Assembly: GCF_018977255.1 (NCBI RefSeq)
Contig: NW_024704743.1
Span: forward strand, 6,884,001-6,948,000
Origin: Callorhinchus milii
Taxonomy: Eukaryota
DNA: 64,000 nt
Direction of reading: 5' to 3'
Numbering within the stretch: position 1 is the first letter of the stretch; each line of letters starts with the position of its first letter. A model generated the notes under the pieces. That model searched no databases, was not told the DNA's origin, and saw nothing but the letters and a program-made list of their open reading frames with translations. Positions 2,220 through 63,985 of the stretch are shown one piece after another. The translations under genes were made by a program, and so were the position numbers.

Positions 2220-2520
2220 GGAGTCCTGTAGCTCAGTGGTTACAGTTCTCACCTCACAAGCGAGAGACCTGGGTTTGATTCCTGGCAAGGCAAAATCTTG
2301 GGCAAGTTTCCTTACTCCACACACCTGATAATAATCCTTCAAAAAAAAATTGGTCACTTCAATCCATGACTGTTTGTGGAACACTGCTGTGCGCAATTGG
2401 CTGTCATGTTTTGCCCACAAATATACAGTCTATTCACTTTACAGTCTATTCTGTGAAGCACTTTGAGACGTCTAGAAGACATGAAAAATGCTATATCAAA
2501 TGCAAGGATTATTATTGTTG
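2220..2520 (+). mobile_element. Young tRNA-headed SINE, full length
   Basis: Head GGAGTCCTGTAGCTCAGTGG with A/B-box-like motifs, shared body, hairpin tail and (ATT)n. Many similar copies occur in the window. Confidence 0.92.
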
Positions 2521-2670
2521 TTCAGTAAAAGATCCTTTTTATTTGGGGGATTATTGGGCAAGATACTCAAAGAAACTGCCTTCTCTTTTCAAGCAGTCCC
2601 ATGGGATCTCCAACAATACAGCACACTCCCAGCGAAACATCGTAGTCTCCGCCAAGACTGGATGAGTTCA
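2521..2670 (-). mobile_element. Deu-domain SINE fragment
   Basis: Reverse complement matches the GATCCCATGG..GAAAAGAGAAGG..TTTCT part of the 5849-6286 copy. Confidence 0.65.
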
Positions 2671-4167: not shown

Positions 4168-5030
4168 CAACAACAACAACTTGGATTTATATAGCGCCCT
4201 CCACGCCGGACAGCGTCTCAGAGCGCTTTACAGTAACGGATCCCGGGGCCGAGCCAGGGGGAGGGGGAGGAAGGTGACTAAAGGCACAATCGAAAAGAAA
4301 GGTCTTCAGCAGAGACCTGAAAATGGGTAGGGAGGGAGCGAGGCGAAGGGAGTGAGGAAGGCAGGTGGAGTCCTGTAGCTCAGTGGTTAGAGCACTCGCT
4401 TTGCAAACGAGAGACCTGAGTTCAATTCCAGGCAGGGCGAAACCTTGAGCAAGTTTCCTTACTCCACACAGAGCCTAATAATAATCCCTCCAAAAAACAA
4501 AAACAATAATAAATTGGTCATTTTCAATCCACGACTGTTTGTGGGACACTGCTGTGCGCAATTGGCTGCTGCGGTCGCCCACAAATATACAGTCAATTCA
4601 CTTTACGGTCTATTCTGTGAAGCGCTTTGGGACGTCCTCCTGACGTGAAAAGCGCTATATCAAATCAAGGATTATTATTATTATTATGGCAGTTCCAGAG
4701 CCTCGGTGCATAGTGGCTGAAGGCACGGCCGCCGAAGGTGGAGCGGAGGACTCGGGGGACGAGGAGGAGGCCAGACCCGGAGGAACGAAGGCAACGGGTA
4801 CTGTTTTGAGGAGAGAGGTCAGAGAGGTAGGGGGGTGTAGAGGAGTGCAGGGACTTGAATACAAGGGTGAGGATCTTGAAATTGATCCGCTCTGGATTGG
4901 CAGCCAGTGCAGTCAGGCAAGGACTGGGGTGATCGGGGAGCGGAGTTTCATGCGGGTGAGAATGCGGGTGGCAGAGTTTTAAATTATTTGGATTTTATGG
5001 ATAGTAATGGATGGGAGACCGGCACAGCAT
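4168..5030 (-). mobile_element. L2 LINE 3' portion interrupted by a SINE
   Basis: (CAA)n tail and hairpin at 4168-4226. L2 homology resumes at 4688 after the SINE. Confidence 0.85.
4367..4687 (+). mobile_element. Young tRNA(Ala-like)-headed SINE, full length, nested in L2
   Basis: Complete head, body and (ATT)n tail. GGCAG is duplicated at 4360-4364 and 4688-4692, consistent with a target-site duplication (TSD). Confidence 0.95.
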
Positions 5031-5848
5031 GGATGATTAAATAGCAGAGTTTGTTCGGATACTTTGAAAATTACTTTTAACGTTTATCTTCCACATGGTC
5101 AAATGGATACCAATGCAACATCAATAAAACCAGCAGAGGGTGCTATACACCTTAAGCTTTGTGCTACTGCATATTGCACGATTGTATAATGTGTGCGCTG
5201 AACGTCACTGGAAATTGTCATCTTGCTCTGGAAGTTGAAAACTGAAAAGTAATTTTTACCACACAAAATTTGTTATAGCTGGGGACAGGTGGTATATGGA
5301 AATGTATTTTTTCCTTCATGTCTCAATACCATTTCTATACCTTTGGTTTAAAGGAAGCACATAACATTTCCAGCTCTATCAGCTGTAACTGGGTATCAAC
5401 GCTGTGCAAAGCATTGCCAAGAATCATTTATACATGCATCTTCTGTGCTTGTGTGAAACTGACTCCATTTCACACCTCCTCTTGCTGATACAATGGGCAC
5501 CAGGTCTCCTTGTGCATCAGTATGGAAATTACAAGAGCAAATTTGCATTCACGCCATCTAGTCAAACAATAGTTGGAGCTCATCCAGTTAAACACAATTT
5601 CAGACCTGAGGGTTCTGAATTCAAATCCCAGTGAAGTTACTCTGCCCTGAAATAAACTAGGGGTAGGAATTCTTTCAACTCAGCTCCTGCTAACCATGCA
5701 AGCAAATAAAGCTCAAAGAGGAAAGCTGGTACGAGCTGGACAAGCAGCTGGAAGCTTGCCGGACAATATCAATGGCAAGCGAGCCGGTTAAACTCCAGCA
5801 GTAACCCATCTCTCAGCTCATGCCAACCAATGTCCCATGTGTGTCATC

Positions 5849-6286
5849 CTGTCTCAGTGGTAGCACTCTCGTCTCGGAGTAATAAGGTTGTGGGTTCAAA
5901 CCCCATGTCGGGATTTCGAATCACAGAGTCTGAGATGACACTTCAATGCAGTGTTGCATTATCAGAGGTGGCACATTGTCAGAGGTACTGTCCTTCGGAT
6001 GAGACATTAAACCATAGTCCTGTCTGCCTGTACAGGTTGACGTTACAGATCCTTTGGCAGTATTGGAAAAGAGAAGGGAGTTTCTCCTGGTGTTCTGGTC
6101 AAAGAATCCCCCAAAATAGAATTAGTCACTCACTGCATGGCTGTTTGTGCGATATTGCTGTGTGCAAACTGGCTGCTGAGTTTCACCCACAAAATACAGT
6201 CAATCCACTTTACAGTATATCCTGTGAAGTGCTTTGTGATGTCTCAATAATGTGCTATGGTGATATATCAAATGCAAAGATTATTT
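5849..6286 (+). mobile_element. Deu-domain SINE (SacSINE1/AmnSINE1-like), near full length, old
   Basis: tRNA-like head, then GTCCTTCGGATGAGACATTAAACC..GATCC..GAAAAGAGAAGGGAGTTTCTCCTGGTG, which resembles the Deu domain as I recall it, then an L2-type tail. Confidence 0.8.
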
Positions 6287-6477
6287 AATACCCTCTATGA
6301 TTAGATAAGAAGAATGTGTGTCTCGGGAGAGAATATGCAGTCAATTTCAAACATGGGAATCTCCAAGTGTACGTGGCATACATGGAACTGTTTGGTTTGG
6401 ACAGTGTTTAGCATGGTAATGGATTTCCACATGAGTCAAGACACACGACTAACCAAAACACTTTTAAACAACAATAC

Positions 6478-8695: not shown

Positions 8696-10092
8696 GTCAT
8701 AGAATCTTACAGCACAGAAGGAGGCCATTCGGCCCATATTACCTGTGCCGGCTCTTTGGAAGAGCTACCCAATCAGACCCACTGCCCCACTTCTTCCCCA
8801 TACCCCTGCAAATTTTTCCTTTTCAAGTACCTATCTAACTCCTTTTTGAAAGTTTTATTGAATCTGTATTGAGGTTGTTTCCACCTTTTCAGGCAGTGCA
8901 TTCCAGACCGTAACAACACTCTTGTTAAAACACTTCTCCTCATCTCCCCTCTGTTCTTTTGCCAATTATCTTAAATCTATGTGTCCTGATTTCTAGCCAG
9001 TTGTAACAGTTTCAGCTGATCTACTCTATCAAAATCTCTCATAATTTTGAACATTTCTATTAAATCTCCTCTATTCTCTGCTCTAAGGAGAACAATAATA
9101 ATAATCCTTGCATTTCATATAGCGCTTTTCACGTCTTCTAGACGTCTCAAAGCGCTTCACAGAATAGACTGTAAAGTGAATTGACTGTACATTTGTGGGC
9201 AAAACACGGCATCCAATTACGCACAGCAGTGTCCCACAAACAGTCGTAGATTGAAGTGACCTATTTATTATTGTTTTTTTCTTGAGGGATTATTATCAGG
9301 CGTATCCCAGCTTCTCTTGTCTCTCCACATAACTAAAGTCCCTCATCCCTGGTACCATTCTGGTAAATCTCCTCTGAACCCTCTCCAAGGCCTTGATATC
9401 TTTCCTAAAGTGTGGTGCCCAGAGTTGGACACAATACTCCAGCTGAGGCCTAACCAATGACTCATAAAGGTTCAGCAGAACTTCCTCACTTTTGTACTCT
9501 ATGCCTCTATTTATAAAGCCAAGGATCCCATATGCTTTTTTAACAGAGCTATCAACCTGTCCTGCCACCTTCAGACCCGTGTATGTGAGCCCCCAAGTTT
9601 CTCTGCTCCTCTACCCCCTTTAAAACTGTACCATTTATTGTATATTGCCTCTCTTCATTCTTCCTCCCAAAATGCTTCATCTCAAACTTCACTGCATTAA
9701 ACTTCATCTGGCATGTGTCTGCCCATTTCACCAGTCTGTCTATGTCCTCCTACAGTCTGCTACCATCCTACTCGCTGTTTACCACGTTCCCAAGTTTTGT
9801 GTCATTTGCAAACTTTAAAATGTTGCTCTCTTTACCCAAGTCCAGGTCATTCACATATATCAAAAAGAGCAGTGCACCTAATACCAACCCATAGGGGCCA
9901 CCACTGTATACTTCCCTCCAGTCTGAAAAAAAAGATCATTACTAGCCTCTGCTTTCTGTCTCCCAACCAATTTGTATCCATGCTGCCACTGTCCCTATTA
10001 TCCCATGGGCTTCAATTTTGCTAACTAGTCTATTATATGGCACCTCATCAAATGCCTTCTGAAAGTCCATATACACTACATCAACTGCACTG
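8696..10092 (-). mobile_element. CR1 LINE, 5'-truncated and degenerate
   Basis: ORF 9296-9568 reads LVRPQLEYCVQLWAP..ALERVQRRFTRMVPG. CR1 tail GGCCGAATGGCCTCCTTCTGTGCTGTAAGATTCTATGA lies at 8696-8735. Confidence 0.93.
9094..9303 (-). mobile_element. Young SINE, 5'-truncated, nested in CR1
   Basis: SINE tail and body interrupt the CR1 sequence between AAGGAGAACA and ATCCCAGCTTCTC. Confidence 0.92.
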
Positions 10093-12672: not shown

Positions 12673-13016
12673 GTAATAATAATCCTTGCATTTGATATAG
12701 TGCTTTATCTGTGCAAAACTGGCTGCCACATTTCGCCCATAAAATATAGTCATTCACTTTACAGTATATTCTGTGAAGTACTTTGAGATGTCTTGAAGAT
12801 GTAATAAAGAGTTATATCAAATGAAAGGATTGTTATTATTTTCACGTCATTGATACGCGTCAAAGTGCTTCACAGAATATACTGTAAAGTGGATTGATTT
12901 TATTTTGGGGCGAAAAGCAGCATGCACACAGCAATATCCTTTAAACAGTAGTGGATTGACTGATCAACATTTTTTTGTTGCTGTTTTGGAGGGATTATTA
13001 CCCCTGGAAAGCGAAT
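12673..13016 (-). mobile_element. SINE (long CORE-type subfamily), truncated, with a nested antisense SINE fragment (about 12708-12840)
   Basis: The tail is split at GCTTT|..|TTCACGTC. The left end on the minus strand matches the extra segment of the 60461-60806 copy. Confidence 0.75.
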
Positions 13017-23241: not shown

Positions 23242-23552
23242 TAATAATAATAATAATCCTTGCATTTGATATAGCGCTTTTCACGTCTTCTAGACGTCTC
23301 AAAGCGCTTCACAGAATACTGTAAAGTGAATTAACCGCATATTTGTGGGCGAAACACGGCAGCCAATTGCGCACAGCAGGGTCCCACAAACAGTCGTGAT
23401 TGAAAATGACCAATTTATTATTGTTTTGTTTTGGAGGGATTATTATTAGGCGTGTGGAGTAAGGAAACTTGTCCAAGGTTTCGCCCTGCCGAATTGAACC
23501 CAGGTGTCTCGCTTGCAAGGCGAGTGCTTTAACCACTGAGCTACAGGACTCC
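23242..23552 (-). mobile_element. Young tRNA-headed SINE, full length (TAGAA-loop tail)
   Basis: Complete head, body and tail. Confidence 0.95.
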
Positions 23553-26750: not shown

Positions 26751-27049
26751 CATGCCAGTGTGCGAGTGGGCGTGCCCATGCCAGTGTGCGAGTGGGCGTG
26801 CCCAGGCCAGTGTGCGAGTGGGCGTGCCCAGGCCAGTGTGCGAGTGGGCGTGCCCAGGCCAGTGTGCGAGTGGGCGTGCCCAGGCCAGTGTGCGAGTGGG
26901 CGTGCCCATGCCAGTGTGCGAGTGGGCGTGCCCATGCCAGTGTGCGAGTGGGCGTGCCCATGCCAGTGTGCGAGTGGGCGTGCCCATGCCAGTGTGCGAG
27001 TGGGCGTGCCCAGGCCAGTGTGCGAGTGGGCGTGCCCATGCCAGTGTGC
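26751..27049. repeat. GC-rich minisatellite, 26-bp unit CA(T/G)GCCAGTGTGCGAGTGGGCGTGCC, 11.5 copies
   Basis: Direct count. Units differ only at position 3. Confidence 0.98.
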
Positions 27050-27113
27050 TAGAGCACTAAGCAGCGCTCAGCTCCTCCAACTACACTAGATAAACAAAGA
27101 CAGCTCTGAACCA

Positions 27114-27432
27114 AAACAATAATAATCCTTGCATTTGTTATAGCGCTTTTCACGTCGGGAGGACGTCCCAAAGCGCTTCACAGAACACACTGTAAAGTGA
27201 ATTGACTGTATATTTGTCGGCGAACGCGGCAGCCAATTGCGCACAGCAATGTCCCACAAACAGTCATAGATTGAAAATGACCAATTTATTATTGTTTTTG
27301 GTTTTGGAGGGATTATTATTAGGCTCTGTGTGGAGTAAGGAAACTTGCCCAAGGTTTCGCCCTCTGCCTGGAATTGAACTCAGGTCTGTCGCTTGCAAAG
27401 CGAGTGCTCTAACCACTGAGCTACAGGACTCC
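27114..27432 (-). mobile_element. Young tRNA-headed SINE, full length (CTCCC-loop tail)
   Basis: Complete head, body and tail. Confidence 0.95.
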
Positions 27433-28137
27433 AAGATTACAGCAAGGCAACTTTCTTGTACAGCAATAAACAACACAGCTTGAATGACCAAAATAAATGG
27501 GTGTACAACACTTTAAATATCAGGAGTCCAAAATGAACCAACAACTTTCACAGCAAATTAAACCGAAACTGGCAGTAATACTTTCAATAACCCAAGATTG
27601 AAAATGCACAGAAGCGAACTATGAAATATACTAAACAGGGCAGTTTTTGTTGAAATATTATTGTCAGTGCTTCAAGTTTGCTAATGCAATACATCATCCA
27701 GAAAACCATATCATTAATAAAATAAGGCATGAAAAGGAAACCACAACACTACTGGAGCACAGCATGATTTATTCAAGAGAACAAGTGGCTTACATCTACA
27801 TGTGCAGTTACTCAAGGACATGAACAGAAAACACCCCCAGCCTGGCAGCACCAAGGTCACAAACCTTGGTGTATTTGCGTTGGTGTATTTGCAAACGAGT
27901 ATTTGCGTTCCCAGACAGCACAAAAGCACCAGTGTGTAACCTCAGTGTGTTTTGACTCAACTGCCCTTGAAACCCCCTTTGCATTTCTGATACATTCAGC
28001 TTTCCCTCACCTCTGCAATATTGCCCACTCCACCACAACGTCTCTCCTCAGACTGCTGAGACCTTTAACATGCTTTCATCTTGTCCAGGCTCAACTATGC
28101 CAACTGTCTGCTCACTGGACTTCCCAACTCATCCCTC

Positions 28138-28870
28138 CGCAACAACAACTTACATTTGTATAGTGCCTTTCATGTCAAGAAGACATCCCAAGGCCCTGAA
28201 TAGTCAGGGATCCGCACCCAAGCTGGTGGTTAGGAACAGGAGGGGTGAAGTGCAGGGAAGGTAGGGGTAGGAGAGTAAGCAAAGGCACAGTTGAAGAGGA
28301 AAGTCTGGAGATGGGTCTTGAAGGAGGCAACGGAGGGGGCAATGTGGAGCGACTGTGGGATGGAATTCCAGAGGGTGGGGTCAGAGAGGCTGAAAGCCCG
28401 CCCATGGTGGGGTTAGCTAGGCGAGGAACAGCAGGGAACTTGAAGCAGGCCAGAGCCCACTGAGCAGAGGGAGTGGACAGGTGGGTGGGGGTTAGGAGGT
28501 CACAGAGGTAGGGAAGAGCAAGGCCGTGGAGGACTTTGAAGGATCTTAAACTGTATCCGAGTGATGGGGAGCCAGTGGAGTCAGGTTAGGATGGGGCTGA
28601 TAGGGTCGCGGAGCCCGATGCCGGAGAGGACACGGGCTGCAGAGTTCTAGATGATCTGCAGCCTGTGCAGTTGGGGAGACCGACAAGCAGGGAGTTTGTG
28701 TACTTGAACCTGGATGTGATGAATGCGTGGATGAGGGTCTTGGCGACCTTCGGTGAGAGAGTGGTGGAGTCAGATAATATTGCAAATGTGGGGAAAGGCG
28801 TAGTGGGTCATGACACGGATATGGGAGATGAAGGATAGTTGAGTTGAACAGGACGCTGAGGTTCCATATT
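28138..28870 (-). mobile_element. L2 LINE 3' portion
   Basis: (CAA)n tail, hairpin and ORF2 C-terminal remnants. Confidence 0.88.
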
Positions 28871-28874
28871 GGCC

Positions 28875-34299: not shown

Positions 34300-34543
34300 A
34301 TAATAATAATACTTGCATTTGATATAGCGCTTTTCACGTCTTCTAGACATCTCAAAGCCCTTCACAGAATAACTTTTAAGTGAATTGACCGTATATTTGT
34401 GGGCGAACGCGGCAGCCAATTGCGCACAGCAATGTCCCACAAACAGTCATAGATTGAAACTGACCAATTTATTATTGTCTTTTGTTTTGGAGGGATTATT
34501 ATTAGGCGTGTGGAATAAGGAAACTTGCCCAAGGTTTCGCCCT
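34300..34543 (-). mobile_element. Young SINE lacking most of the tRNA head
   Basis: Tail and body are intact. Homology stops at AAGGTTTCGCCCT. Confidence 0.92.
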
Positions 34544-36381: not shown

Positions 36382-36760
36382 AAATAATAATTCTTGCATT
36401 TGATATAGTGCCTTTTGCATCGTAAGAATTCACTAAATACATATCAAAGTATTTCAAAGGATCCAATGAAAAGTGATTGACTATAATTTGCAGGCAAAAG
36501 GGACGGCAAATTTGCACACAGCTATGTCCTACAAATCGCCATGAACTGAATGACCAATTATATCAGGGGAATTGCTGGCCAGGACACCAGAAGAAACTCC
36601 CTTCACTTTTCAAATAATGTCACGGGATCTGAAACATCCACTTGAACTGGCAGACAGGACCTCATTTTTAAAGTCTCATCTGAAGGAAGCAGTACCTCCA
36701 TCAATGTAGCACTTTGTTTTGCAGCATCAGCCCAGTCTGCGAGTTCAAAATTCTGATGTG
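36382..36760 (-). mobile_element. Deu-domain SINE
   Basis: Tail, body and Deu domain (GGCCAGGACACCAG..GAAACTCCCTT..GTCTCATCTGAAGGA). Confidence 0.8.
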
Positions 36761-38971
36761 GTGTTCAATGCTGCAACTGTATTCTTTCATCCCCAACGTA
36801 AAGATTATGAAACTTTATGACATGTTTTCTCTTCTTCCCCCACTCCCCTCCTCAGCACACTAAAATCAAGTCTTATTCCCAAAAAGCAGACCCAAGATTG
36901 GGAAGTTTTTTTTAAAAAGTCAATCTATTGAAGAAGACGACCACAACAAGAAAGACAATGTCAAATGAGAGAATCTGTGCTGCTGAAGCCAGTTAGGGAG
37001 AGAACAACAACAACTACAACAAGATTCCATTTATAGAGCGCCTTTCACGTCGGGAGGACGTCCCAAGGTGCTGAGAAAAAAAATGAGAAACATTGAGGGT
37101 TTGAAGGGAGCAGATCTGTATTCAATGGAGGAGATGGAGGACTATTCTGTAGTGTCTGGTTGGGCAGATGGGGCAGCGGTGGGGGAAAGATCAGGGTATA
37201 ACTGTGTGGACAGACCATTCCCCCAGAAAATTGAAGGGGTGGGGACGAAGAAACAGTAGAATGGTAAAGCAGGTTTTGTGTCTCGTGTCAAATAAAAGGT
37301 TTCAATGGACCCAACAGCCTTCTCTTGTTATAGTGACCTTCTTATGTTGTCGAGCTTCTAGTTCACAGCAGGAAGCACTTCCACTTTAGCATATTCAAAG
37401 GACAAGCAGTCACCCACCCACGTTTCTACCAACTAGAGATTTTTTTAAAAAATAAAAGAGTTCAGGAAAATTTAAGAACCACATATTTACAGGTGCAAGT
37501 TGTAATCTGGCAAAGCACAAACTGTGTAGTACAATCAAAACTTTGAAAGAGGTTCGACCGGTATTTAATATCTTCACTATTCTTCTAAGTCACAGGAACA
37601 CAAGCTGCTGTTCCAACAACTTGCCTCCCAGGGCACAGAACCAGGAAATTAATTTAAAAAGTTGTTCACGATGACATCATTTCCATTTTGTTTGTAATCG
37701 CTCCGATCACTTTCTTCTGCATATCTAGCATAACTACTTTTGGGACTCTGTGACAGAATGAGCAACATTCTGCTTATAAAAATGCATGTTACAAGGATGC
37801 GTCAATGTAGCTGAAAATATTTCAAAACTATACAGTACTAACAGAGACTAAATTCTAAAGGTTTTAGAAATCACCCATTTCTGCGAGAGTACTCAGTTCT
37901 GCTACAACTCACGTTGGTGTCCTCACTGCAGACTCTTAGCACTGAAAAAATGCACGGCTTTTTGGTAGATTTCCAAGAGTTCAAATGAACTCATGATTTA
38001 AGACCCAACTGTTACATTGAAGTACATTCAGCATTGCAGGTTCTCATGCTCACTAGCTCTTTTTTATAGGATTTCAATGTGGAATTTTTTTTAAATGGTC
38101 CTTCACAGAATCTCAGAAATAACCTTTGTACTCTGAAATGCTTGTATAGTTACCCCATGGTGCGACTGAGTCACTCATCCATCTTTAAAAGACTGATATT
38201 TCACAATCTCAGTAAACTGAAAAGATAGCAGCAATTAGGTACACCACTCAGTATGTACTGTCGACCATCTCTTTGTGCTCATGCTTGATGAGTATGCCAA
38301 AGCAATTACAATGCAATACACCAGAAGTCTCATGTTTTGCAGAGATCTTGGACTGCACAATCCAAGGGTGTACAATTTTACGGAAAATCTCAGTGAATAA
38401 CTTGCCTCCCAGGGATCCTACATCTTGCGCAAATTCAAGACCTTAATTCCCAAGCAACAGGACTATGCTGCGCTGACATGCCTCTCTTCTGTCTGCAATC
38501 AAAAAAATCTTGGAACTAAGTAAAACCTGAGGCGCAAGCAACAGCTATGTTGTTCACCATCCATTTTTAGCAGCACAGCCACCCAAGTCACTGCAGTATT
38601 ATTTATAATTTGTGTGCAAAATATGTGTTATAATGCATAGGATTGTCAGAGTTGAAAGCAGGTAATTTGTTCAAGGCCTACAAATGCACAGTCTCACCAC
38701 ATCACAGTGAATCCTGTGTAGCTCTTTGAGATAACCTCCTAACATGAAAGCCTTACACCAAATGCAAGGCATATTATTTATTCCAGAATTAAGTAATAGA
38801 AGGTAATTTGGGGCAGAGGTTTTAGGTCTTTTTTAAAACTGCATTTTAAGGAATGGGACCAGGTAAAAGCATCTTAATTCTTGTTAAAAATAACTAGCTT
38901 ATAAATTTCTATTATTGTCCCTACAGAAATCTAATTTCCAATAGAAGTCACTTCCACCCCACAGCCAGATA

Positions 38972-39780
38972 GAACAAAAACATTACATTTGTATAGCTCC
39001 TTTCACGTTGGGAGGACGTCCCAAGGCACTGGACAGTGTACAGCATTTCAGACCCAAGCTGGGGTCAGCGAGGGAGAAGGGAGGGGAGGGGAAGGGGAGT
39101 GACCGATGGCATGGTTGAAGAGGAGGGTTTTGAGGTGGGACTTGAAGGAGGCTAAGGAGGGGGCGAGGGGGAGTGATTGGGGGATGGAGTTCCAGAGGTT
39201 GGGGGCAGAGTGGCTGAAGGCTCTCCTGCCAATGGTGGGGAGGGGGACGTGGAGCAGGCCGGAGCCGGCTGAACAGAGGGAAGGGCGGGTTGGTAGGGGG
39301 TTAGGAGGTCACAGAGGTAGGGGGGGGACGAGACCATTGAGGGCTTTGTAGGTGAGGACCAGGATTTTGAACTGGATCTTCTGAAGGATAGAGAGCCAAT
39401 GGAGTCGGGCGAGAGTGGGGGAAATGGGGTCACGGAGTTTAGTGCGGGAGAGGACACAGGCTGCAGAGTTCTGGATTATCTGCAGCCCGTGGAGGGAGGA
39501 GTTGGGAAGGCCGACAAGCAGGGGTTTGCATAGTTGAGCTTGGAGGTGATGAAAGCTCGAACAAGACCCATGTCTGCGGATGATGTCACCAAGGGGGCGC
39601 ATGTAGATATTAAAGAGAGGGCCAAGGGCAGAGCCAGACGTGACAGTGCGGGAGCTGGAGGAGCAACTGTTAGAGGCAACAAAGTGGAGATGGTGAGAGA
39701 AATAGGATTCGATCCAGGCAAGGACAGATCCGCGAAGATTAAGTAGAGAGGAGAGGCAGTGTTTGAGGATGGAGTGAACT
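38972..39780 (-). mobile_element. L2 LINE 3' portion with an internal deletion
   Basis: PLGDIIRRHG is joined directly to the RAFITSKL/QIIQNSAA/LHWL/IQFKILVLTYKAL region. The YADD-to-NLGV part is missing. Confidence 0.88.
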
Positions 39781-41153: not shown

Positions 41154-41468
41154 GGAGTCCTGCAGCTCAGTGGTTAGAGCACTTACTTTGCAAGCGAGAG
41201 ACCTGGGTTCAATTCCAGGCAGGGTGAAACCTTGGGCAAGTTTCCTTACTCCACACGCCTGATAATAATCCCTCAAAAAAAGCCAATCATTAATTGGTCA
41301 TTTCAATCCATGACTGTTTGTGGGACACTGCTGTGTGCAATTGGCTGCCGCATTTCACCCACAAATATACAGTCAATTCACTTTACAGTCTATTCTGTGA
41401 AATGCTTTGAGATATCTAGGAGACGTGAAAAGCGCTATATCAAATGCAAGGATTATTATTATTATTAT
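41154..41468 (+). mobile_element. Young tRNA-headed SINE, full length
   Basis: Complete head, body and tail. Confidence 0.95.
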
Positions 41469-42496: not shown

Positions 42497-42785
42497 GACA
42501 AACAGCCATGAACTAAGTGACCAACTTTATTTTGGAGGATTGTTGACAAGGGAATCTGGAGAAAATCCCTTTTTGTTTTGAATAGTGCACAGAATCTTTA
42601 ACGTCCATCTAAACAGACAGATGGAGACTTTGCTTTGTCTCATCTGAAATCCGGCACCTCTGACAACCCAGCACTGCACTGGAGTAGCAGCATAGACTAT
42701 GTGAGTTCCAGGTCCCAACGTGGTGCTTGAACCACAACCTTCTGACTTACAGGCAATAGTTCTAACAACTGAGTCAGGCTGACAC
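42497..42785 (-). mobile_element. Deu-domain SINE
   Basis: Head CTTGAACCACAACCTTCTGACT and Deu domain. Confidence 0.78.
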
Positions 42786-43287
42786 ATGCAGGCCATTGTG
42801 AACAAAGTTAGAATAATAACTCCTTCCCCACCCAAGTTTTTTTTACACCTACAGTAACTAGCTTCTCGCCCAAGCTGCTTCACTAACCTGAATCTTCTCC
42901 TGCCTTAGAAATATTTTCCCCTTTTCCTGCTCAGCCTCCCCTTGGACATGAACAGTAGCATCTGTTTTAGCCCACCTCAGTCTCACCTGAAAAAACAATA
43001 TTCTAGAAATCTTGGCTTAGATTTCCTGGTGCTCACTGGAAACAGCTGTCTGCTGCTGCAGTGCTGCAATTCAGGAGCAATTGGCAGAGGCCCAGGTCAA
43101 AGCTGGAGATTGGACTTGTGTATCTCTGCATCCTGGATTTGCAAAAAACAGGCAAACTCAGAACATCAGGGAGTAGCACTGTTAAGACACTGAGGGTACC
43201 TACATTCCTGGTCACACTCTCCAAGATTGTGGTACCTTGCAATAGAATTTCTGACTGGTATTGCCACAGCTACATAATAATATAATT

Positions 43288-43685
43288 ATATTTAGTATAG
43301 CATCTTTCATATTGGGAGTACATCTCAACGCATTTTGCAGGATATACAGTGAAGTGTAGTGACGTTTTGTGGCCTAGTTCAGCAGCCAATTTGCATCGAG
43401 CAGTGCCCCATAAACAGTGAAGTGAATGACCAATTTTATTTGAAGTATTGGCCAGGATACCGGAAGAAACTCCCTTCTCTTTTCGAATTAGTGCCATAGG
43501 ACCTTTAATGTCCACCTGAACAATCAGACGGGACCTCAGTTTAACATTGCATCCAAAGAATGGCACTCCAACAAAGCAGCACACCCCCAACTTGGACTAC
43601 GTGAGTTCTATGTCCAAACGTGATGCTTTAATCCACAACCTTCTGAATCAGAGGCGAAAGTGCTACCAATTGAGTCAAGCTGACA
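43288..43685 (-). mobile_element. Deu-domain SINE, near full length
   Basis: Head, Deu domain, body and tail. Confidence 0.82.
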
Positions 43686-46380: not shown

Positions 46381-47038
46381 TGTAAGATTTTAAAACATCA
46401 ATTGCAGACCGCAAAACACTCCCTTTTCAAGAGCTTCTTTTAGACATCTATTGTCAGAAAATATCGAGTTTCGCTTGGATTTTTTGATAGTGGGGCATGG
46501 AATAATAGTCCGTTGGAATCCTACAACAATGTCAAGGTTTTATCCACTTGGTAAACTGGACAAATTTAAAACCATTCTTTTACTATCAGCAATCTGTCCC
46601 TTCCTTTCCTGAAGAATTGACAATATTTTCCTCCTCTATGTTGCATTTTCAAGGACACTTCATTCATCTGGCATTGTTTCGGATACAAGTCTCACTGGAA
46701 TCATCTTCTGACTATGCAGCTGCGAGGGAAAGGGAGGGGTGGTACTGCAGCTGAGTCCAATCCTGTTGTCAGAGCTGCTATCGTTCGGCTGAGATGTTAA
46801 ACGAAGGTCATGACATGAAGTACTTTGGGATGTTTTGACCAGATATAATAATACAAATTTACATTTATATCGCTCCTTTAATGTCGGGAGGACTTCCCAA
46901 AGCATCGATAATGCAAGATATCAAATGCAAGGATTATTATTAGTAGTAGTGGTATTCGTACTGTTCATCTGACATCCTTACAGGGCTCAGCACAAACCAG
47001 GAACTGAAAATAATTCATTAAAATTATATTTGACTCAA

Positions 47039-49512
47039 GCACATAGATTGGGACAACCAAATTGGGAAAAGTATGATAGAGGAAGAGTTTATAGAATGTA
47101 TTAGGGAAAATTATCTAGATCAGTGTGCCGAGGAGCCAACCAGGGAACAGGCCATATTAGACCTTGTTTTGTGCAATGAAGCAGGGCTGATCAGCAAACT
47201 GGAAATTAAGGCTCCTCTAGGGCAAAGTGATCATAATACGATGGAATTTAGCATTAAGTTAGAGAAAGAAATAGTTAAGTCCGAAGCAAAGGTTTCAAAT
47301 TTAAGTAGAGCTAATTTTGCTGGTATGAAAGAGGAATTAACCAAAATAAACTGGGAAATTAGACTTAAGGATTTGACAGTAGACCAGCAATGGCAGACGT
47401 TTAAGGAGATAGTGCAAAATTCCCAGCGAGCACATATTCCTTTGAGGAATAAGAATGCCACGGGAAAGGTGGCCCAACCGTGGCTAACTAGAGCAGTTAG
47501 GGAAAGTATAAAGTTAAAGGAAGAAGCCTATAAAACAGCTAAGATGAGTAGTAAACCCAAGGATTGGGAGAACTTTAGGGATCAACAAAGGAGAACCAAA
47601 AAAGTGATTAAGAGGGAGAAAATGGAATATGAGGGCAAACTAGCGAAGAACATAAAGACAGACTGTAAGAGTTTTTATAAATATATAAAGAGGAAGAGGC
47701 TGTCAAAGGTAAATGTGGGTCCGCTACAGGCAGAGATGGGGGGAATTATAGTAGGGGACAAAGACATGGCAGAGTCTTTAAACAAATACTTTGCTACTGT
47801 CTTCACCTTAGAAGACACTAAAAACCTACCAAGAATAGAAGGGAACCAAGAAGAAAATGTTAGCGAGTAACTTGGAGGAATTAATATTAGTAAAGAAATG
47901 GTTTTAAGTAAATTATCAGGTCTTAAAACTGATAAATCTCCTGGACCTGATGGCCTACATCCTAGGGTTTTAAAAGAGGTGGCTACTGAGATAGTGGATG
48001 GCTTGTCTTTGATCTTCCAAAATTCTCTGGATTCTGGAACGGTTCCCATTGATTGGAAGATTGCAAACGTGACACCACTATTTAAGAAGGGTGGGAGAGA
48101 AAAGATGGGGAACTATAGACCAGTTAGTCTGACATCAGTGGTAGGGAAAATTCTTGAGTCCTTAATTAAGGATGTCGTTATGGGATTCCTGGAAGACCAT
48201 AACAAGATTAGGCAGAGTCAACATGGCTTTACAAAAGGGAAGTCATGCTTAACTAATCTTTTAGAGTTTTTTGAAGATGTATCTAGCAGGTTAGATAGGG
48301 GGGAACCAGTAGATGTAGTATATTTAGATTTTAAAAAGGCATTTGACAAAGTGCCACACAAAAGGCTATTGCACAAGGTTAAGGCCCACGGGATTAATGG
48401 GAACATATTAGCATGGATTGAAGAGTGGCTAACGGGTAGAAAACAGAGAGTAGGGATAAACGGGTCATTCTCGAATTGGCAGGATGTGACTAGTGGAGTG
48501 CCACAAGGATCAGTGCTTGGGCCTCAGCTATTTACAATTTACATCAATGATCTAGACGAGGACATTGAATGTAACGTATCTAAATTCGCGGATGACACTA
48601 AACTAGGTGGGAGAGTAAGCTCTGAGGATGATGCAAAAAGATTGCAACGGGATATAGATAGGCTAGGGGAGTGGGCGAGTAGGTGGCAGATGGAATTTAA
48701 TGTGGGGAAGTGTGAAGTTATTCACCTAGGTAGAAAAAATAGAAAAACAGATTATTTTCTAGAGGGGGAGAGATTAGATAGTGTTAGTGTTCAGAGGGAT
48801 TTGGGTGTCCTTGTACACCAGTCTCAAAAAGTTAGTTTGCAGGTGCTGCAAGCAACTAAGAAGGCGAACGGCATGTTAGCGTTCATTGCAAAAGGTTTAG
48901 AGTACAAGAGTAGGGAAGTCTTGCTGCAACTGTATAGGGCCTTGGTGAGACCGCACCTAGAGTATTGTGTGCAGTTTTGGTCTCCTTATTTAAAAAAGGA
49001 CATACTTGCCCTAGAGGGGGTGCAGCGTAGATTCACTCGGTTAGTTCCTGGGATGAGGGGACTGACCTATGAGGATAGGCTGAATAAACTAGGGCTATAT
49101 TCTCTAGAGTACAGAAGAATTAGGGGAGATCTTATTGAAACATATAAGATTCTTAAAGGGCTGGATAAAGTAGACACTGAGGGACTGTTTCCCCTGGTAG
49201 GAGAATCTATAACCAGGGGTCACAGTCTTAAAATTAAGGGTCAGCCTTTTAGAACAGAGTTGAGGAAACATTTCTTCACTCAGAGGGTAGTGAATTTATG
49301 GAATTCACTACCCAGAAGGCTGTAGATGCTCAGTCCTTGAACATCTTCAAGGCTGAGACTGATAGATTTTTAAAAAACAGAGACATTAGGGGATATGGGG
49401 ATAGGGCAGGTAATTAGAGTTAGGTCTGAAGATCAACCATGATCTTATCGAATGGCGGGGCAGACTCGAGGGGCCGAATGGCCTACTCCTGCTCCTAATT
49501 CTTATGTTCTTA
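47039..49512 (+). mobile_element. CR1 LINE, 5'-truncated within the endonuclease region, recently active family
   Basis: ORF2 homology is continuous from about 47039. The 3' UTR ends GGCCGAATGGCCTACTCCTGCTCCTAATTCTTATGTTCTTAT. Confidence 0.97.
47073..49416 (+). pseudogene. CR1 ORF2 (APE endonuclease C-terminus plus reverse transcriptase), disrupted
   Basis: Motifs [60 protein letters not shown] and KFADDTKL. In-frame TAA at 47868-47870 and an apparent 1-bp deletion near 49311. Confidence 0.95.
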
Positions 49513-49606: not shown

Positions 49607-49797
49607 ATAACAACAACAACTTGGATTTATATGGTGCCCTCCACGCCTGACGGTGTCTCAGAGCGCTTTACAGTAATGGATCCCAGGACCAAGCCGGGGG
49701 GGGGCGGGGGGGGGGGCGCGGAGAAGATGACCAAAGGTGTGGTCGAAAAGAAAGGTCTTCAGCAGAGACCTGAAAATGGAAAGGGAGGGAGCAAGAC
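49607..49797 (-). mobile_element. L2 3' end, same subfamily as 4168 and 58630
   Basis: CTTGGATTTATAT..CAGAGCGCTTTACAGTAA.GGATCCC is shared among the three copies. Confidence 0.9.
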
Positions 49798-52084: not shown

Positions 52085-52870
52085 TCTCCACACTACACAA
52101 AGGATAATGGCAGCAAATAGAAAGAATACAGCATAGGTTCACTAGGATGATACCACAGCTGGAAGATTACTGCTATCAAGGTAGACTGGATAAATGAGGC
52201 CTTTTTCCGCTACAGAAAAGACATCTGAGAGGAGACCAAACAGAGGTGTTTAAGATTATGATGGGTTCAATAAGTTTGGCAAAGATAGGCTGTTTCCACT
52301 ATCGATAACCAGAGAACACAAGTAAGATCACGACTCGGGGATCCAAAGGAAAATTTTAGAGGAACTATTTTTTTGACCTGCTGATTCCCTACCAACCTGC
52401 CCACTCCCTCCATTCAGCGGCTCCGGCCTGCTCCATGTCACCCGCCTGACCCGCCCTATCATCGGTGGCCGGGCCTTCAGCCTCTCTGCCCCCACATTCT
52501 GGAACTCCATCCCACGGTCCCTTCGCCTCACTTCCTCCCTTCTCTTCGAGTGTGCCTTTGATCGCCCTGTCTGCCTTCCCTCACCCCTACACCACCCCTC
52601 CCCCATGCTCGGACCACAACACCTGACTGTTCAGCGGTTTGGGACGTTCTCCTGACATAAAAGGCACTCTATAAATGTAATTTTGTTGTTGATTTTCACG
52701 CAACGGGTATTGAGATTATGGAACTCGCTGCCTGAACCAGTGGTTGAATCAAATAGTATTCATAGCATTCAAAATCTTCACATGAGGGAGAGGGGAATAG
52801 AAGGATGTGGGAGGGAATAATGGGAGTACAAACACCGGCATGGACTGGTTTGGCTGAGTGGCCTACTCGC
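52085..52870 (+). mobile_element. Old CR1 3' portion interrupted by an L2 (about 52374-52695)
   Basis: RRLRGD..EVFKIM and RNYF remnants, then the insertion, then FTQRVLRLWNSLP. The insert carries an L2 hairpin tail. Confidence 0.82.
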
Positions 52871-57049: not shown

Positions 57050-57366
57050 TAATAATAATAATAATCCTTGCATTTGATATAGCGCTTTTCACGTCGGAAG
57101 GACGTCCCAAAGCGCTTCACAGAACACACTGTAAAGTGAATTGACTGTAAATTTGTGGGCGAACGCGGCAGCCAATTGCGCACAGCAATGTCCCACAAAC
57201 AGTCGTAGATTGAAAATGCCAATTTTATTATTGCTTTTGGTTTTGGAGGGATTATTATTAGGCGTGTGGAGTAAGGAAACTTACCCAAGGTTTCGCCCTG
57301 CCTGGGATTGAACTCAGGTCTCTCGCTTGCAAAGCGAGTGCTCTAACCACTGAGCTACAGGACTCC
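57050..57366 (-). mobile_element. Young tRNA-headed SINE, full length
   Basis: Complete head (anticodon arm CTCGC-TTTGCAA-GCGAG), body and tail. Confidence 0.95.
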
Positions 57367-58231: not shown

Positions 58232-58629
58232 CACTCTAGCCTCTGAGTCAAATGGTTTATGGTTCAAGCCCCACGTTGGGACTTGGAATCACATCCTCTA
58301 AGCTGACACTGCAATGCAGTGGTGGGGGTATACTGCATCGTCAGAGGTGCGTCCTTCGGATGAGATGTTAAACCGAGGTCCCATCTGCCTGTTCAGGTGT
58401 ATGTTATACCTGGCGAACCATCCCCCATGGCTGTTTGTGGGCCATTGCTGTGCGCAATTGACTGCTGGGTTCTGTCCACAAAATAGTCACTCCACGTTAA
58501 CAGTACATTCTGTGCAGCGCTTTGAGACGTCTAGAAGACGTGAAAAGCGCTATATCAAATGCAAGGATAATTGTTATTATACCGTGAAGCACTTTGAGAC
58601 ACTGACGACTTGATAAGACGCTATATCAA
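58232..58629 (+). mobile_element. Deu-domain SINE with two successive tails
   Basis: Well-kept Deu motif GTCCTTCGGATGAGATGTTAAACCGAGGTCCCATCTGCCTGTTCAGGTG. Tails at 58510-58580 and 58583-58629. Confidence 0.82.
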
Positions 58630-58825
58630 CCACTTGGATTTATATAATGCCCGCCACGTCGGACGGCGTCTCACAGCGCTTCACAGTAACGGATCCCGGG
58701 GCCGAGCCAGGGGGAGGAGGAGGAAGGTGTCCAAAGGCGCGGTCGAAAAGGTCTTCATTTGAGACCTGAAAATAGAAAGAGAGGGGGCGAGGCGATGGGA
58801 GGGAGGAAAGGAGTTCCAGAGCCGA
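58630..58825 (-). mobile_element. L2 3' end
   Basis: Same subfamily as 4168-4360. Confidence 0.88.
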
Positions 58826-59900: not shown

Positions 59901-60460
59901 CAGGCAAAACATGACAATTTGTTTTAGGAATTGAGAATTTGTAGCTGAAAAATATATAAAAACAAAACAGCAATCTACATTTTACTCTTGACTGAGACAT
60001 TTTATATAAAATGATTTTTTTTTAACCTCTTCTCCTTCCCTCCCCACCCCCATGAAGAGAATAAAGCTAAATACAGATTTGTGTTGAAAACGTTGACAAA
60101 GAAAATCTGAAGATATGTTATTCAAATATGATTTTAATCCTTGGAAAAATCCCGTTTTACTAACTACATCAATGACCTATAAGCCTATATCTAAGCAGAA
60201 TATGTACAACACATGCAATTTATTACATTAAATGTAAAGTATTTAGCTTTCCCAATGAATTAGCCATAGGTAAAGCCCTAGACTACAATGCCACAGAACA
60301 GAAGGTCACAGGTGTTGAGTTTGCAGATGTCCACCAGAATATGCTTCAATTAGAATAAACACCATTGCATTTGATACATTGGGGGAAAGAGGATGGGGGT
60401 ATAGGTTTTCTTCCAGGGTTCCTTCTTCCAAATGGAGTCCTGAAATCCCCTTTGGGAGAG

Positions 60461-60806
60461 AATAATAATAATCCTTGCATTTGATATAGTGTCTTATCAC
60501 GTCATTGAGACGTCTCAAGGCGCTTCATAGAATATACTGTAAATTGAATTGAATACTTTGTGGGCGAAACGCGGTAGCCAATTGCGCAAAGCAATGTTCC
60601 ACAAACAATCATGGATTGTTTTTGAGGGATTATTACGCCCAGAAAGCGATCCGCCAATCGACTAACAACAGGTTCCTACTTACTGCTAGGTAAACAGAGG
60701 TATATGGAGTAACAAAACTTGCCTATGGCTTTGCCCTGCCCGGGAATTAAATCCAGGTCCTCTCACTTGCGAGGTGAGTGCGCTAACCACTAGACTGCAG
60801 GACTCC
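60461..60806 (-). mobile_element. tRNA-headed SINE with a complete CORE-like domain (longer, older form of the young SINE)
   Basis: Same head and tail as the young SINE, plus about 62 extra nt (60636-60697) that continue the CORE-like motif. Confidence 0.85.
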
Positions 60807-61436
60807 ACCCGTGAGGACAAATCACAAGGGAGTGGTGATTGCAACCAGCGGGTGAGCATCACTGAGCACATACCTCTCACGCTCTCTCTCTCTCTCTGTC
60901 AAGGCCAGTAGTGATTAAAATATACAGAATAAAAATCATTTACCTGAAACACTTGGGAGTCTATGCGAGGCCAGGGAGAACAGTAACATGTGTCGTGTTT
61001 TGTCTGTTTTTATACATAAACATATTTAGAGACTTGAATCACCTGTGTGGATGAAGGGGTGGGTATGGGAGACAAGCTCAGATTCTACTGTGTTGCCTCA
61101 CAATCTAGAGGTTGCCGACACTCACAGTGGAGATTTGCACATGAACAATGGCCATTGCGGGAAAGTGTCGAGGAATGACAGCCTGAAACCTAACACCAAT
61201 AGAAGACTCAAAATCTTCAGGGAGGGGAAGGGAATTAGCAATGGCAGAATTGTAAAGTACAGTCATAGCACTTTTACAATTTATTAATATATTTAGCTCA
61301 TTCTATTTCCAAACATGAGATTCTCTCTTAGAATACTAACATATTTTAATTAAGTAGGATACATAGCCATGATATGGATTAATGTGAGATTTAACCAACC
61401 TTAAAATTGAACTTTGCAACAGAGCAATTTGCACTA

Positions 61437-61672: not shown

Positions 61673-62800
61673 CTCTACCTGGTAAGCTCTTGAGTTGCAG
61701 GGCAAACAAGAGCTGGTTTGGAAGAATCCCTGCCCCTCCAAGTCCATTATATCCGTTATTTTGCAAAACAATCCAGATTCGTTGGTGCCTTGGGTGACTG
61801 CAGCCCAAATTGGCTCAGGAAGTGGAGTACCAAGATTGTCAGGCTCAACTTGATTCCAGTATTCTGTTGCCAAGATGTCAATTTGGAGCCAGCTCATCCC
61901 CAAAGAGACCTTGCTTCAACTACCTCCCTCCCACCCAGGATAGGTACTGGTTTGTCATTCAGCATCCGACAAGAGAGGGTTTGACCAATTAAGTCTCAAC
62001 AGTGAGAAGAGGCATTTGCTGGGAAGAAGCATTTGCAGGCAGAAATAAATCTCACTTTAATGTACACAATTCAATTTACATGTATGCAGCACTTTTCACG
62101 TTAGGAGGATGTCTTAAAGTGCTCGACACTGCTGGGGGTGGGGAGGGGAAAGATACTTGAAAGTGCAGTCAAAAACGTACGACTCGAGATGGGCCTTATA
62201 TACTTTGTCCTTTTATACTCTCCCCCACCCCACCTGCCCCTCCTTGAAAGCACAACTTTCATATTTATCTTTTGTAAAATACAGGCACAGTGTGAGCAAT
62301 TCTCCAGAAAGATGAATACAACAAAGATACGCATAAACTAATTGCAAACAACGTTCAAACAATAGCTAATTAGCTTGTGTGCCCTACAGACCCCAGTAAA
62401 TTTCAGGTAGGTCCCATTTATTGATTACAAATTGGGCATGAAATTAATGTTCAACAAACAGTAATTTGGGATCGAGTCCCAGTATTAAGAATAGACCTTT
62501 TTCAATACCGGGGACTCGCTGTGTTGCACATACACTGTGTTGGTATCGCACAACACAATACCAGATTACAAAGCAACTCGAGAAGACTGTAAATTTGAGA
62601 TCAGTCCGTTTAAATCTCGGTTTTCCTTCATCCGCATTTGCCCTCGATCCTGGCTGGTTCCGTCTCCTCCCTCGAGAGACTAACTAACTAACTAACTAAC
62701 TAACCTGACCAACTCACCAACCTCTCGAGGTTTCGAAAACGACCAGGCGAGATCAGCCCATGGAGGGCGTGTGAAAAATGGGGCTTTTCGCTCTCGACTT

Positions 62801-62878
62801 AGAGAGAGAGAGAGAGAGAGAGAAAGACACACAGAAAGAGAGAGAGAGACAGAGACACAGAGAGAGAAAGACACACAC

Positions 62879-62925
<47 letters not shown>

Positions 62926-63436
62926 AAGACAGAGAGAGACAGACAGAGAGAGACAGACACACACACACACAGAAAGACAGACACACACAGAGAAAGATAC
63001 ACACACACAGAGAAAGACACACACACACAGAGAAAGACACACACACACAGAGAAAGACACACACACACAGAGAAAGACACACACACACAGAGAAAGACAC
63101 ACACACACACACACACACAGAGAAAGACACACACACACAGAGAAAGACACACACACACAGAAAGACACAAACACACACAGAGAAAGACACACACACACAC
63201 AGAGAAAGACACACACACACACACAGAGAAAGACACACACACACAGAGAAAGACACACACACACAGAGAAAGACACACACACACACAGAGAAAGACACAC
63301 ACACACACACAGAGAAAGACACACACACACACAGAGAAGGACAGAGAGAGAGAGAAAGACACACACACACAGAGAGAAAGACACAGCGAGGAGAGAGAGA
63401 GAGAAAGACACACACACACACACACACAGAGAGAGA
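62801..63436. repeat. Compound GA/CA microsatellite with a higher-order AGAGAAAG(AC)n unit of about 20 bp
   Basis: Direct reading. The + strand is almost devoid of T. Confidence 0.98.
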
Positions 63437-63985
63437 AAAAAAAGAGAAAAATCCCTAACTTCACAAAAAATATCGTTCACCAGAACAGCTCAACGTCAAC
63501 CAGGTTCGGTTCAGCACAGCCCGGAGCCAGTCAGTCAGTCAGTCAGTCAGTCCCTCCACACACCAGCAATCACCTTGGCTTCTCCCCCTCCTCCTCCTCT
63601 CCTCATCCCCTGTCAAGACACCCAAATCCTTCCTCACACATAATTAACCTCGAATTGCAGCCCGCGGGTGAAACATCGCCTTTTCGCCCCACGACAGGGA
63701 AGTGAAGTGTTATATATATATTTTTTTGGGGGGGGGGGCGGGTGTGGTGTGGGGGTGAGAGGATTTTTAAAAAAATTCAACCAAATCCGAGTCTTTTCAT
63801 TTAATTTTTTTTAAAAAAATTTAAATAAATCTAATCTTTTTTCGAGTCGAAATAAAGAGTCGGCCCGAGCGCCCCACACCGGGGGGACGGGGGGGGGGAG
63901 AGAGGAGGAAACTGCCTGCGCCTCGCTGTTAATTGTGAATTTACAGATAAGATGTATTTATATCGACCAGAAATAAGATGTAAAT

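What the first reader, a model, noticed from the sequence alone, without database searches (positions are those of the whole stretch)
60461..60806. CORE-Deu chimeric SINE: precursor, deletion derivative and 3' donor family all visible in one window
Seen: this copy has the same tRNA head and 3' body as the abundant young SINE (for example 4367-4687 and 57050-57366). It carries about 62 extra nt. On the minus strand it reads GGCAAGTTTTGTTACTCCATATACCT-CTGTTTACCTAGCAGTAAGTAGGAACC..CTGGGCG-TAATAATCCC, whereas young copies read GGGCAAGTTTCCTTACTCCACACGCCT-AATAATAATCCC. The copy ending near 13016 also reaches into this extra segment. From AATCCC onward, both forms align with the 3' part of the old Deu-domain SINE (5849-6286), which has a different head. 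Known: GGGCAAGT..CCTCTGTT.ACC.AGCAGTAA resembles the CORE domain of MIR-type SINEs, and CORE and Deu are normally treated as separate SINE superfamilies. Inference: a tRNA+CORE 5' module recombined with a DeuSINE 3' module at AATCCC, then lost half of CORE and amplified. CORE integrity was therefore not needed for success.
Basis: partly seen in the sequence, partly recalled or inferred. Interest (0 to 1): 0.72.

Follow-up and report, generated by a model that had tools for sequence, protein, structure and literature searches.

The report
Chimaera SINE with lobster-like front half
This is an older, longer form of a known jumping-DNA family of chimaera fishes; its two-part origin is already published, but its front half looks unexpectedly like a lobster element, which may mean it crossed from crustaceans into fish.

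Summary
The copy at 60461-60806 (-) has a 62-nt segment (60636-60697) where 8 short copies have 2 nt. It is not private: summed contig depth over it is about 10^4-10^5 times the flanks in the window's species and high in two others. The core inference, a CORE-SINE that took the 3' end of SacSINE1 by recombination, is published for elephant shark CmiSINEs (PMC5499810). The captured part begins after the conserved Deu/Nin core, so 'CORE-Deu' overstates it. Long-before-short is supported by two outgroups.

Not found in my searches: (1) By hand count the whole 5' module (head, CORE, linker) matches the lobster CORE-SINE Homa at 131 of 169 columns, the first 130 without a gap. The match stops at the junction. 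Four metagenome CORE-like controls reach 53-60%. This suggests horizontal transfer from a decapod-type SINE (about 50%). (2) The youngest short subfamily carries the tail loop of the window's LINE-type 3' ends (23 of 34 tails), a rival cause of its success. The lobster match rests on a consensus of four sequences and still needs a computed, genome-wide test.

The parts
60461..60806 (-). Long-form CmiSINE-type copy, 346 nt
60732..60806 (-). tRNA-derived head with Pol III A box (about 60782-60792) and decayed B box (about 60743-60754)
   Evidence: Rfam tRNA 60732-60803, 27.8 bits, E 0.001, just under the gathering score of 29; box positions read from the sequence
60670..60732 (-). CORE-like domain; 5' half (60698-60732) kept in short forms, 3' half (60670-60697) lost
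   Evidence: hand count 49/63 to the published CORE-SINE Homa; 43-48 matches of 64-70 columns to 4 metagenome elements, above (3) or equal to (1) the best of 200 shuffles
60632..60669 (-). Linker after CORE, like that of decapod CORE-SINEs
   Evidence: hand count 32/39 to Homa and 23/36 to crayfish Procla; at chance level (16-21 matches) in 4 of 4 metagenome controls
60636..60697 (-). 62-nt segment missing from short forms
   Evidence: high-copy in 4 of 4 runs laid
60626..60635 (-). Junction of the CORE module and the SacSINE1-type 3' end (TAATAATCCC)
   Evidence: Homa likeness ends at 60632 (hand); SacSINE1-like likeness begins about here
60461..60635 (-). SacSINE1-derived 3' module, with a 14-28 nt gap at 60618/60619 against short copies
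   Evidence: 77% to 6136-6285
60461..60525 (-). LINE-like tail: stem-loop 60488-60525 (loop TCAAT) and ATT repeats
   Evidence: aligns with 9 of 9 LINE-type 3' ends tried, over the last 50-70 nt; fold
12839..13014 (-). 5'-truncated long-type copy; same tail loop type as the long copy
4367..4687 (+). Short form, subfamily A (youngest; LINE-type tail loop)
27115..27432 (-). Short form, subfamily A
57050..57366 (-). Short form, subfamily A
2220..2522 (+). Short form, subfamily B (keeps more long-form states)
23242..23552 (-). Short form, subfamily B
41154..41468 (+). Short form, subfamily B
34300..34543 (-). Short form, 5'-truncated, B-type tail
9091..9303 (-). Short form, 5'-truncated, B-type tail
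5838..6290 (+). Old SacSINE1-like (Deu) copy, of the 3'-donor family; relatives at 8077-8447, 12368-12588, 36383-36707, 42498-42786, 43274-43685, 58232-58578
   Evidence: family name inferred from the description in PMC5499810
51013..51049 (+). Example of a LINE-type 3' stem-loop whose central 20 nt equal those of short subfamily A (also 35580 and 37037)

Best explanation
This is a decayed copy of the older, full-length subfamily of the holocephalan CmiSINE family, a Pol III-transcribed element copied by an L2-type LINE that binds its 3' stem-loop. History: (1) A tRNA + CORE + linker module of the type found in decapod crustacean CORE-SINEs was joined, near TAATAATCCC, to the 3' 160-175 nt of resident SacSINE1, which supplied the LINE tail. 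Junction shown; template switching inferred, and proposed in PMC5499810. (2) This long form became a high-copy family (shown). (3) A master copy lost 60 nt (3' half of CORE plus linker) and gave short subfamily B. Order supported by outgroups; how the deletion arose is unknown. (4) Subfamily A then took on the tail loop of the commoner LINE 3' ends. Match shown; conversion and any benefit inferred. Where the 5' module came from is open; horizontal transfer from a decapod-type SINE is my leading reading at about 50%.
For: Published family with this anatomy: tRNA-Ala head, CORE, about 160 bp of SacSINE1-CM 3' end, L2-2_CM tail, two subfamilies 5.1% apart (PMC5499810). The window's A and B three-copy majorities are 93.1% alike. 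Long form is a family: summed depth 0.27-1.29 million over 60632-60703 against 9-18 on flanks in X1, and 0.09-2.25 million in X10 and X14. Order, 3' side: the long copies share tail-loop states with old SacSINE1-like copies (columns 322-325). Order, 5' side: Homa has the 60-nt segment and both 1-nt head insertions of the long form (hand). Divergence from the short majority in the 3' module: long copies 84% and 78%, short copies 89-97% (the majority is built from six of these short copies). Tail loop: of 34 tails without SINE body upstream, 23 are A-type, 0 B-type, 2 long-type, 9 ties. Homologues of these elements carry RT domains (RVT_1 in 3 of 5 ORFs scanned, two of them from this repeat family). 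L2 ORF2 reads the loop specifically (PMC4176376 abstract).
Against: No Repbase or Dfam consensus could be aligned, and Fig. 1 and the supplement of PMC5499810 were not visible. Its '58 of 65 bp of CORE' may mean the published consensuses are the long form. The 3'-module tree does not resolve long against short (long+short+58425 at 84/84, not starred; the two long copies do not form a clade). In the head, of 23 sites where long and short differ, Homa sides with long at 11, with short at 10 (8 of these are C>T or G>A in the long copy, as decay would give) and with neither at 2 (hand count). Contig depth is not a copy number. Only 2 long copies are in the window.
Confidence: 0.85

Rival explanations
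1. Origin of the 5' module by horizontal transfer: a decapod-type CORE-SINE entered the holocephalan lineage (directly or through a shared parasite or third host) and became mobile by capturing the SacSINE1 tail.
For: Hand count against blocks: Homa 131/169 (78%) over 60799-60632, first 130 nt without a gap; head 50/67, CORE 49/63, linker 32/39. Crayfish Procla 121/168 (72%). Homa against Procla only 113/168 (67%). Four metagenome CORE-like elements give 53-60% with 15-24 gap columns and chance-level linkers; 300 shuffles of the module reach at most 97 matches. New CORE domains average 63.2% alike and crustacean ones form a supported clade (PMC5804259). CmiSINEs were not found in dogfish, whale shark, skate, zebrafish, fugu, coelacanth or lamprey (PMC5499810). 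A snow crab CR1 nests among vertebrate CR1s and is closest to a C. milii CR1, where ancient transfer was not excluded (PMC13343379 passage).
Against: Counts are by hand on one decayed copy. Homa rests on 4 sequences (5 EST accessions listed). No crustacean copy was retrieved by tool: 0 hits in 3 viral and 2 prokaryote-genome scans, collections not expected to hold them. tRNA heads and CORE are constrained, so only the spacer and linker are informative. No root, so direction is inferred only from the linker being shared among decapods. PMC5804259 finds vertical inheritance the rule.
Confidence: 0.5
2. Deep vertical conservation: the module descends from an ancient bilaterian CORE-SINE, kept with little change in slow-evolving chimaeras and in decapods and lost or unseen elsewhere.
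For: CORE is held to predate the Radiata-Bilateria split (PMC5499810). CORE divergence does not follow host age (PMC5804259). The long copy is closer to both Homa and Procla than they are to each other (hand), as a slow lineage would be. Taxon sampling is thin.
Against: It needs gap-free spacing and an 82% linker match across more than 600 My (recalled split age), and loss in the seven other fish genomes searched in PMC5499810. Non-decapod CORE-SINEs in the same supplement (Pami, Styp, Lipo, Aply, Elco) show no such linker by eye.
Confidence: 0.35
3. The lobster match is an artefact of contamination or of a consensus built on very few reads.
For: Homa is built from 4 sequences.
Against: Homa's 3' half does not resemble the SacSINE1-type tail by eye, so it is not a chimaera copy. 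Procla (11 sequences) shares the linker.
Confidence: 0.07
4. Reverse order: the short form came first and the long form gained the segment by recombination with an intact CORE-SINE.
For: The tree does not fix the order. Homa sides with the short form at 10 head sites (hand).
Against: Long copies also keep the donor's tail states and are more diverged in the 3' module. A half-CORE needs an intact ancestor.
Confidence: 0.08
5. One reading: a CORE + Deu double-domain SINE, new to science.
For: The 3' module does come from a Deu-family SINE. The 330-bp vertebrate Deu domain (PMC4824008) may reach into it.
Against: Published in 2017. The match to the 5838-6290 copy starts at its position 278-299, after the part shared with zebrafish and lamprey Deu-SINEs (SacSINE1 positions 124-258; positions carried over by inference).
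Confidence: 0.05

Closest known systems
CmiSINEs (SINE2-1_CM, SINE2-1B_CM) of Callorhinchus milii; PMC5499810 (read parts 1-4 of 6, i.e. abstract to the start of the references; no figures, no supplement)
   Same: tRNA head, CORE, about 160 bp of SacSINE1 3' end, L2 tail; recombination origin; younger than SacSINE1-CM; two close subfamilies.
   Different: The text read mentions no long and short forms, no CORE deletion and no tail-loop change. It proposes a head switch from an undetected CORE-SINE, whereas head, CORE and linker here match decapod SINEs as one block.
Homa (Homarus americanus) and Procla (Procambarus clarkii) CORE-SINEs; PMC5804259 (passages and the whole supplement file)
   Same: Collinear tRNA head, spacer, CORE and linker: 78% and 72% by hand count.
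   Different: Their 3' halves are unrelated to the SacSINE1-type module by eye. The paper's CORE tree did not include C. milii (0 mentions).
SacSINE1 / SacSINE1-CM (DeuSINE)
   Same: 3' 160-175 nt and LINE tail (68-79% to the short majority in 5 window copies).
   Different: Different head; carries the Deu/Nin core, which this element lacks.
BflSINE1 (lancelet; CORE + Deu/Nin); PMC4824008 and PMC5804259 (passages)
   Same: Precedent for CORE and Deu-family parts in one SINE.
   Different: It holds the conserved Deu/Nin domain itself; this element holds only sequence downstream of it.

Membership tests
CORE-SINE | tRNA-derived Pol III head | tested here: met
   Rfam tRNA, full model, E 0.001, 27.8 bits against a gathering score of 29
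CORE-SINE | About 65-nt CORE domain right after the head | tested here: met
   Hand comparison with printed CORE-SINE consensuses (49/63 to Homa); computed match to 4 metagenome elements. The SINEBase/MIR consensus itself was not aligned.
CORE-SINE | LINE-derived 3' tail | tested here: met
   Last 50-70 nt align with 9 of 9 LINE-type 3' ends tried
DeuSINE | Conserved Deu/Nin core (about 120 bp) | tested here: not met
   No match to positions 1-277 of the SacSINE1-like copy; core placed at about 124-258 from PMC5499810 Table 1
DeuSINE | Any part of the 330-bp vertebrate Deu domain | not testable with these tools
   Boundaries are given only in figures (PMC4824008)
CmiSINE (SINE2-1_CM / SINE2-1B_CM) | CORE 5' part joined to about 160 bp of SacSINE1 3' end with L2 tail | tested here: met
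   against the description
CmiSINE (SINE2-1_CM / SINE2-1B_CM) | Two subfamilies about 5% apart | tested here: inconclusive
   Window A and B majorities 93.1% alike, from 3 copies each; the long copy is 79-81% to both
CmiSINE (SINE2-1_CM / SINE2-1B_CM) | Identity to the Repbase consensuses | not testable with these tools
   Repbase and Dfam not available; supplement unreadable
Decapod CORE-SINEs (Homa, Procla) | Head, spacer, CORE and linker collinear | tested here: met
   Hand counts 131/169 and 121/168; not computed
Decapod CORE-SINEs (Homa, Procla) | Their own 3' half | tested here: not met
   By eye, likeness ends at 60632

The most novel reading that the evidence does not exclude
The most abundant SINE family of chimaeras began as a CORE-SINE that crossed from decapod crustaceans (or a shared third host) into the holocephalan lineage. 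It became mobile by capturing the tail of the resident SacSINE1, then shed half of CORE and re-tuned its tail loop to the commoner L2. The long form at 60461-60806 preserves the immigrant module. This would be a cross-phylum transfer of a non-autonomous element with its naturalisation steps still readable.
Probability: 0.5. Interest if true: 0.65.

Novelty: new variant of a known kind. Interest (0 to 1): 0.45.

Why it matters
The chimera as such adds little: it is published. If the decapod link holds, it matters for two reasons. Few SINE transfers are on record, because a SINE needs a compatible LINE in the new host (PMC5804259 lists a handful); here tail capture would show how that barrier was passed. 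It would also warn that the patchy spread of CORE across animals, read as vertical inheritance, partly reflects transfer. The series long > B > A also gives a natural test of two open questions: whether CORE helps retrotransposition, and whether matching the LINE's tail loop drives SINE bursts.

Tried and rejected
No whole genome is held for this window, so there are no genome-wide subfamily counts or ages. Search for a second full extra segment in the window: none above shuffles. Scans for crustacean-type copies: 0 hits in 3 of 3 viral scans and 2 of 2 prokaryote-genome scans; the one metagenome scan gave 4 loci, none with the linker. No RNA holder listed; X5 is only guessed to be RNA, so nothing is claimed on expression. 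Flanks of this locus had almost no cover in X10 and X14; not interpreted. The 3'-module tree (17 copies; two short truncated copies and the 36707 copy were left out) did not order long and short. Folding the deleted segment gave only weak hairpins (-11.3 kcal/mol, no shuffle control), so no structural cause for the deletion is claimed; no clean microhomology at its ends by eye. The 14413-14739 / 25153-25491 pair was considered as a LINE donor of the 3' module and dropped: no LINE ORF was seen directly upstream. Literature: searches found no paper linking CmiSINE to decapod SINEs or describing long and short forms (56 and 63 gave 0 papers; most hits were seen as listings only; subscription journals and Repbase Reports are not covered). 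PMC7245038, PMC11481361, PMC3747384, PMC12952989: passages only, nothing on this point. One of the supplementary files of PMC4824008 could not be searched. Earlier findings of this scan: none.

Full report
1. Observation. The copy at 60461-60806 (-) is a 346-nt SINE with a tRNA head (Rfam tRNA 60732-60803, E 0.001, 27.8 bits, gathering score 29). Against short copies it has 62 nt (60636-60697) in place of 2 nt, and it lacks 14-28 nt at 60618/60619 (4 of 4 pairwise alignments). Eight short copies span the deletion point; one more long-type copy, 5'-truncated, ends near 13014. The long head is 78% like the short majority. The 3' module matches old SacSINE1-like copies such as 5838-6290 (77%).

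2. Not private. The window has no second full extra segment and no genome is held. I laid contigs of 4 of the 24 listed runs on 60380-60890 at 80% likeness. In X1 (organism A, 0.90 of the words of the locus) summed depth is 9-18 on the flanks and 0.27-1.29 million over 60632-60703. X10 (organism B) and X14 (organism C) give 0.09-2.25 million there. The tool warns that this is no copy number; it shows only that the segment is highly repeated in three organisms. Depth falls to about 4,650 at 60618 in X1, which fits the spacer gap being rare in the family (inference).

3. What is known. PMC5499810 (parts 1-4 of 6 read; figures and supplement not visible) describes CmiSINEs of the elephant shark: tRNA-Ala head, 58 of 65 bp of CORE at about 67-68%, about 160 bp of SacSINE1-CM 3' end including the L2-2_CM tail, gained by recombination; not found in seven other fish genomes. 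The window fits this, so I infer a holocephalan host. The shared part begins at position 278-299 of the 5838 copy, after the stretch shared with zebrafish and lamprey Deu-SINEs (124-258; positions carried over by inference). So the Deu/Nin core is absent. Whether part of the 330-bp vertebrate Deu domain (PMC4824008 passages) is included I could not test. CORE+Deu hybrids and partial CORE domains are known. I cannot tell whether the two Repbase consensuses are the long or the short form. The window's short copies split into A and B, 93.1% alike on three-copy majorities, near the published 5.1% difference, while the long copy is 79-81% to both. That favours both being short, but '58 of 65 bp of CORE' could fit the long form.

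4. CORE test. A 21-nt motif from the segment found 4 metagenome loci. Three have a tRNA-like head followed by the full domain by eye; the fourth has a weaker one. Over 60732-60670 they give 43-48 matches, above the best of 200 shuffles in 3 and equal in 1; heads and linkers are within the shuffle range in 4 of 4; whole-module identity is 53-60% (the motif itself was the search key, so the CORE score is biased upward). Printed CORE-SINE consensuses in the supplement of PMC5804259 show the same domain by eye.

5. The lobster match. In that supplement the lobster element Homa lines up with 60799-60632. Hand count against the blocks printed: 99 of 130 with no gap, then 32 of 39 with two 1-nt gaps, 131 of 169 in all (head 50/67, CORE 49/63, linker 32/39). 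One of the two gaps lies where about 19-28% of depth shows an extra letter (60668). The match ends at the junction. Crayfish Procla gives 121/168; Homa against Procla 113/168 (hand). Shuffles of the module reach at most 97 matches. The paper reports 63.2% mean likeness among its CORE domains, a supported crustacean clade, and no C. milii element in the analysis. A snow crab CR1 closest to a C. milii CR1 is a loose precedent for decapod-chimaera exchange (PMC13343379 passage; below that paper's transfer threshold). Against: hand counts, one decayed copy, a four-sequence consensus, no crustacean copy retrieved (0 hits in 5 scans), constrained heads and CORE, no root. I put transfer at 0.5, deep vertical descent at 0.35, artefact at 0.07, with the rest unassigned. 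Searches found no paper on this link.

6. Order of events. Homa has the 60-nt segment and both 1-nt head insertions of the long form. Of 23 differing head sites it sides with long at 11, short at 10 (8 are C>T or G>A in the long copy) and neither at 2 (hand). On the 3' side both long copies share tail-loop states with old SacSINE1-like copies and are further from the short majority (84%, 78%) than short copies are (89-97%). B keeps some long-form states that A has lost. A tree of 17 3' modules does not resolve the order. Long > B > A is well supported but not proven.

7. Tail loop. Of 56 tail stem-loops found (antisense duplicates dropped), 34 have no SINE body upstream: 23 A-type, 0 B-type, 2 long-type, 9 ties. 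The 22 with SINE body: 9 B, 5 A, 5 long, 3 ties. The central 20 nt of copy 27432 equal those at 35580, 37037 and 51013. These tails belong to a repeat family with RT remnants; the L2 label comes from PMC5499810 and from a recalled C-terminal motif. L2 ORF2 binds the stem generally and the loop specifically (PMC4176376, abstract only). So A probably took its loop from a LINE 3' end. This is a rival cause of success that does not involve CORE. 'CORE integrity not needed' is fair as a description: 8 short to 2 long copies here. It does not show that the loss helped, and the 5' half of CORE was kept.

8. Verdict. Real feature; chimera already known; the long subfamily, the decapod-like 5' module and the tail-loop change were not found in print in my searches. 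New variant of a known kind. Interest 0.45; 0.65 if the transfer is confirmed.

Noticed in passing
window 14413-14739 (+) and 25153-25491 (-): Two copies, 85% alike, in which a different 5' part of about 150 nt is joined to the same SacSINE1-type 3' module: a possible third chimeric family or an old duplication.
   Followed up: partly
window 58232-58578 (+): SacSINE1-like head and Deu core with internal deletions, but a B-type CmiSINE tail loop; groups with CmiSINE copies in the tree. Possible exchange in the reverse direction.
   Followed up: partly
window 47034-49325 (+): CR1-like LINE remnant with a 484-aa open frame and a strong RT match (RVT_1, E 2.4e-34); CR1 label from recall.
   Followed up: no
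window 10355-12358, 24347-24802, 28137-28873, 38969-39773, 52374-52694: Many decayed L2-type fragments, 65-77% alike, sharing the tail stem-loop.
   Followed up: partly
window 4169-4360, 49609-49795, 58627-58808: A second LINE-like 3' end family with another loop type.
   Followed up: no
window 12674-12958: Cluster of SINE 3' ends inserted into one another in opposite orientations.
   Followed up: no
window 26750-27052 and about 62700-63450: A 52-nt tandem repeat (96-98% alike) and a long AG/AC-rich simple repeat.
   Followed up: no
L001, L002, L004 (around 400-535 on the - strand): tRNA-headed CORE-like SINEs of unknown animals inside metagenome contigs; L002 and L004 look like one family.
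   Followed up: partly
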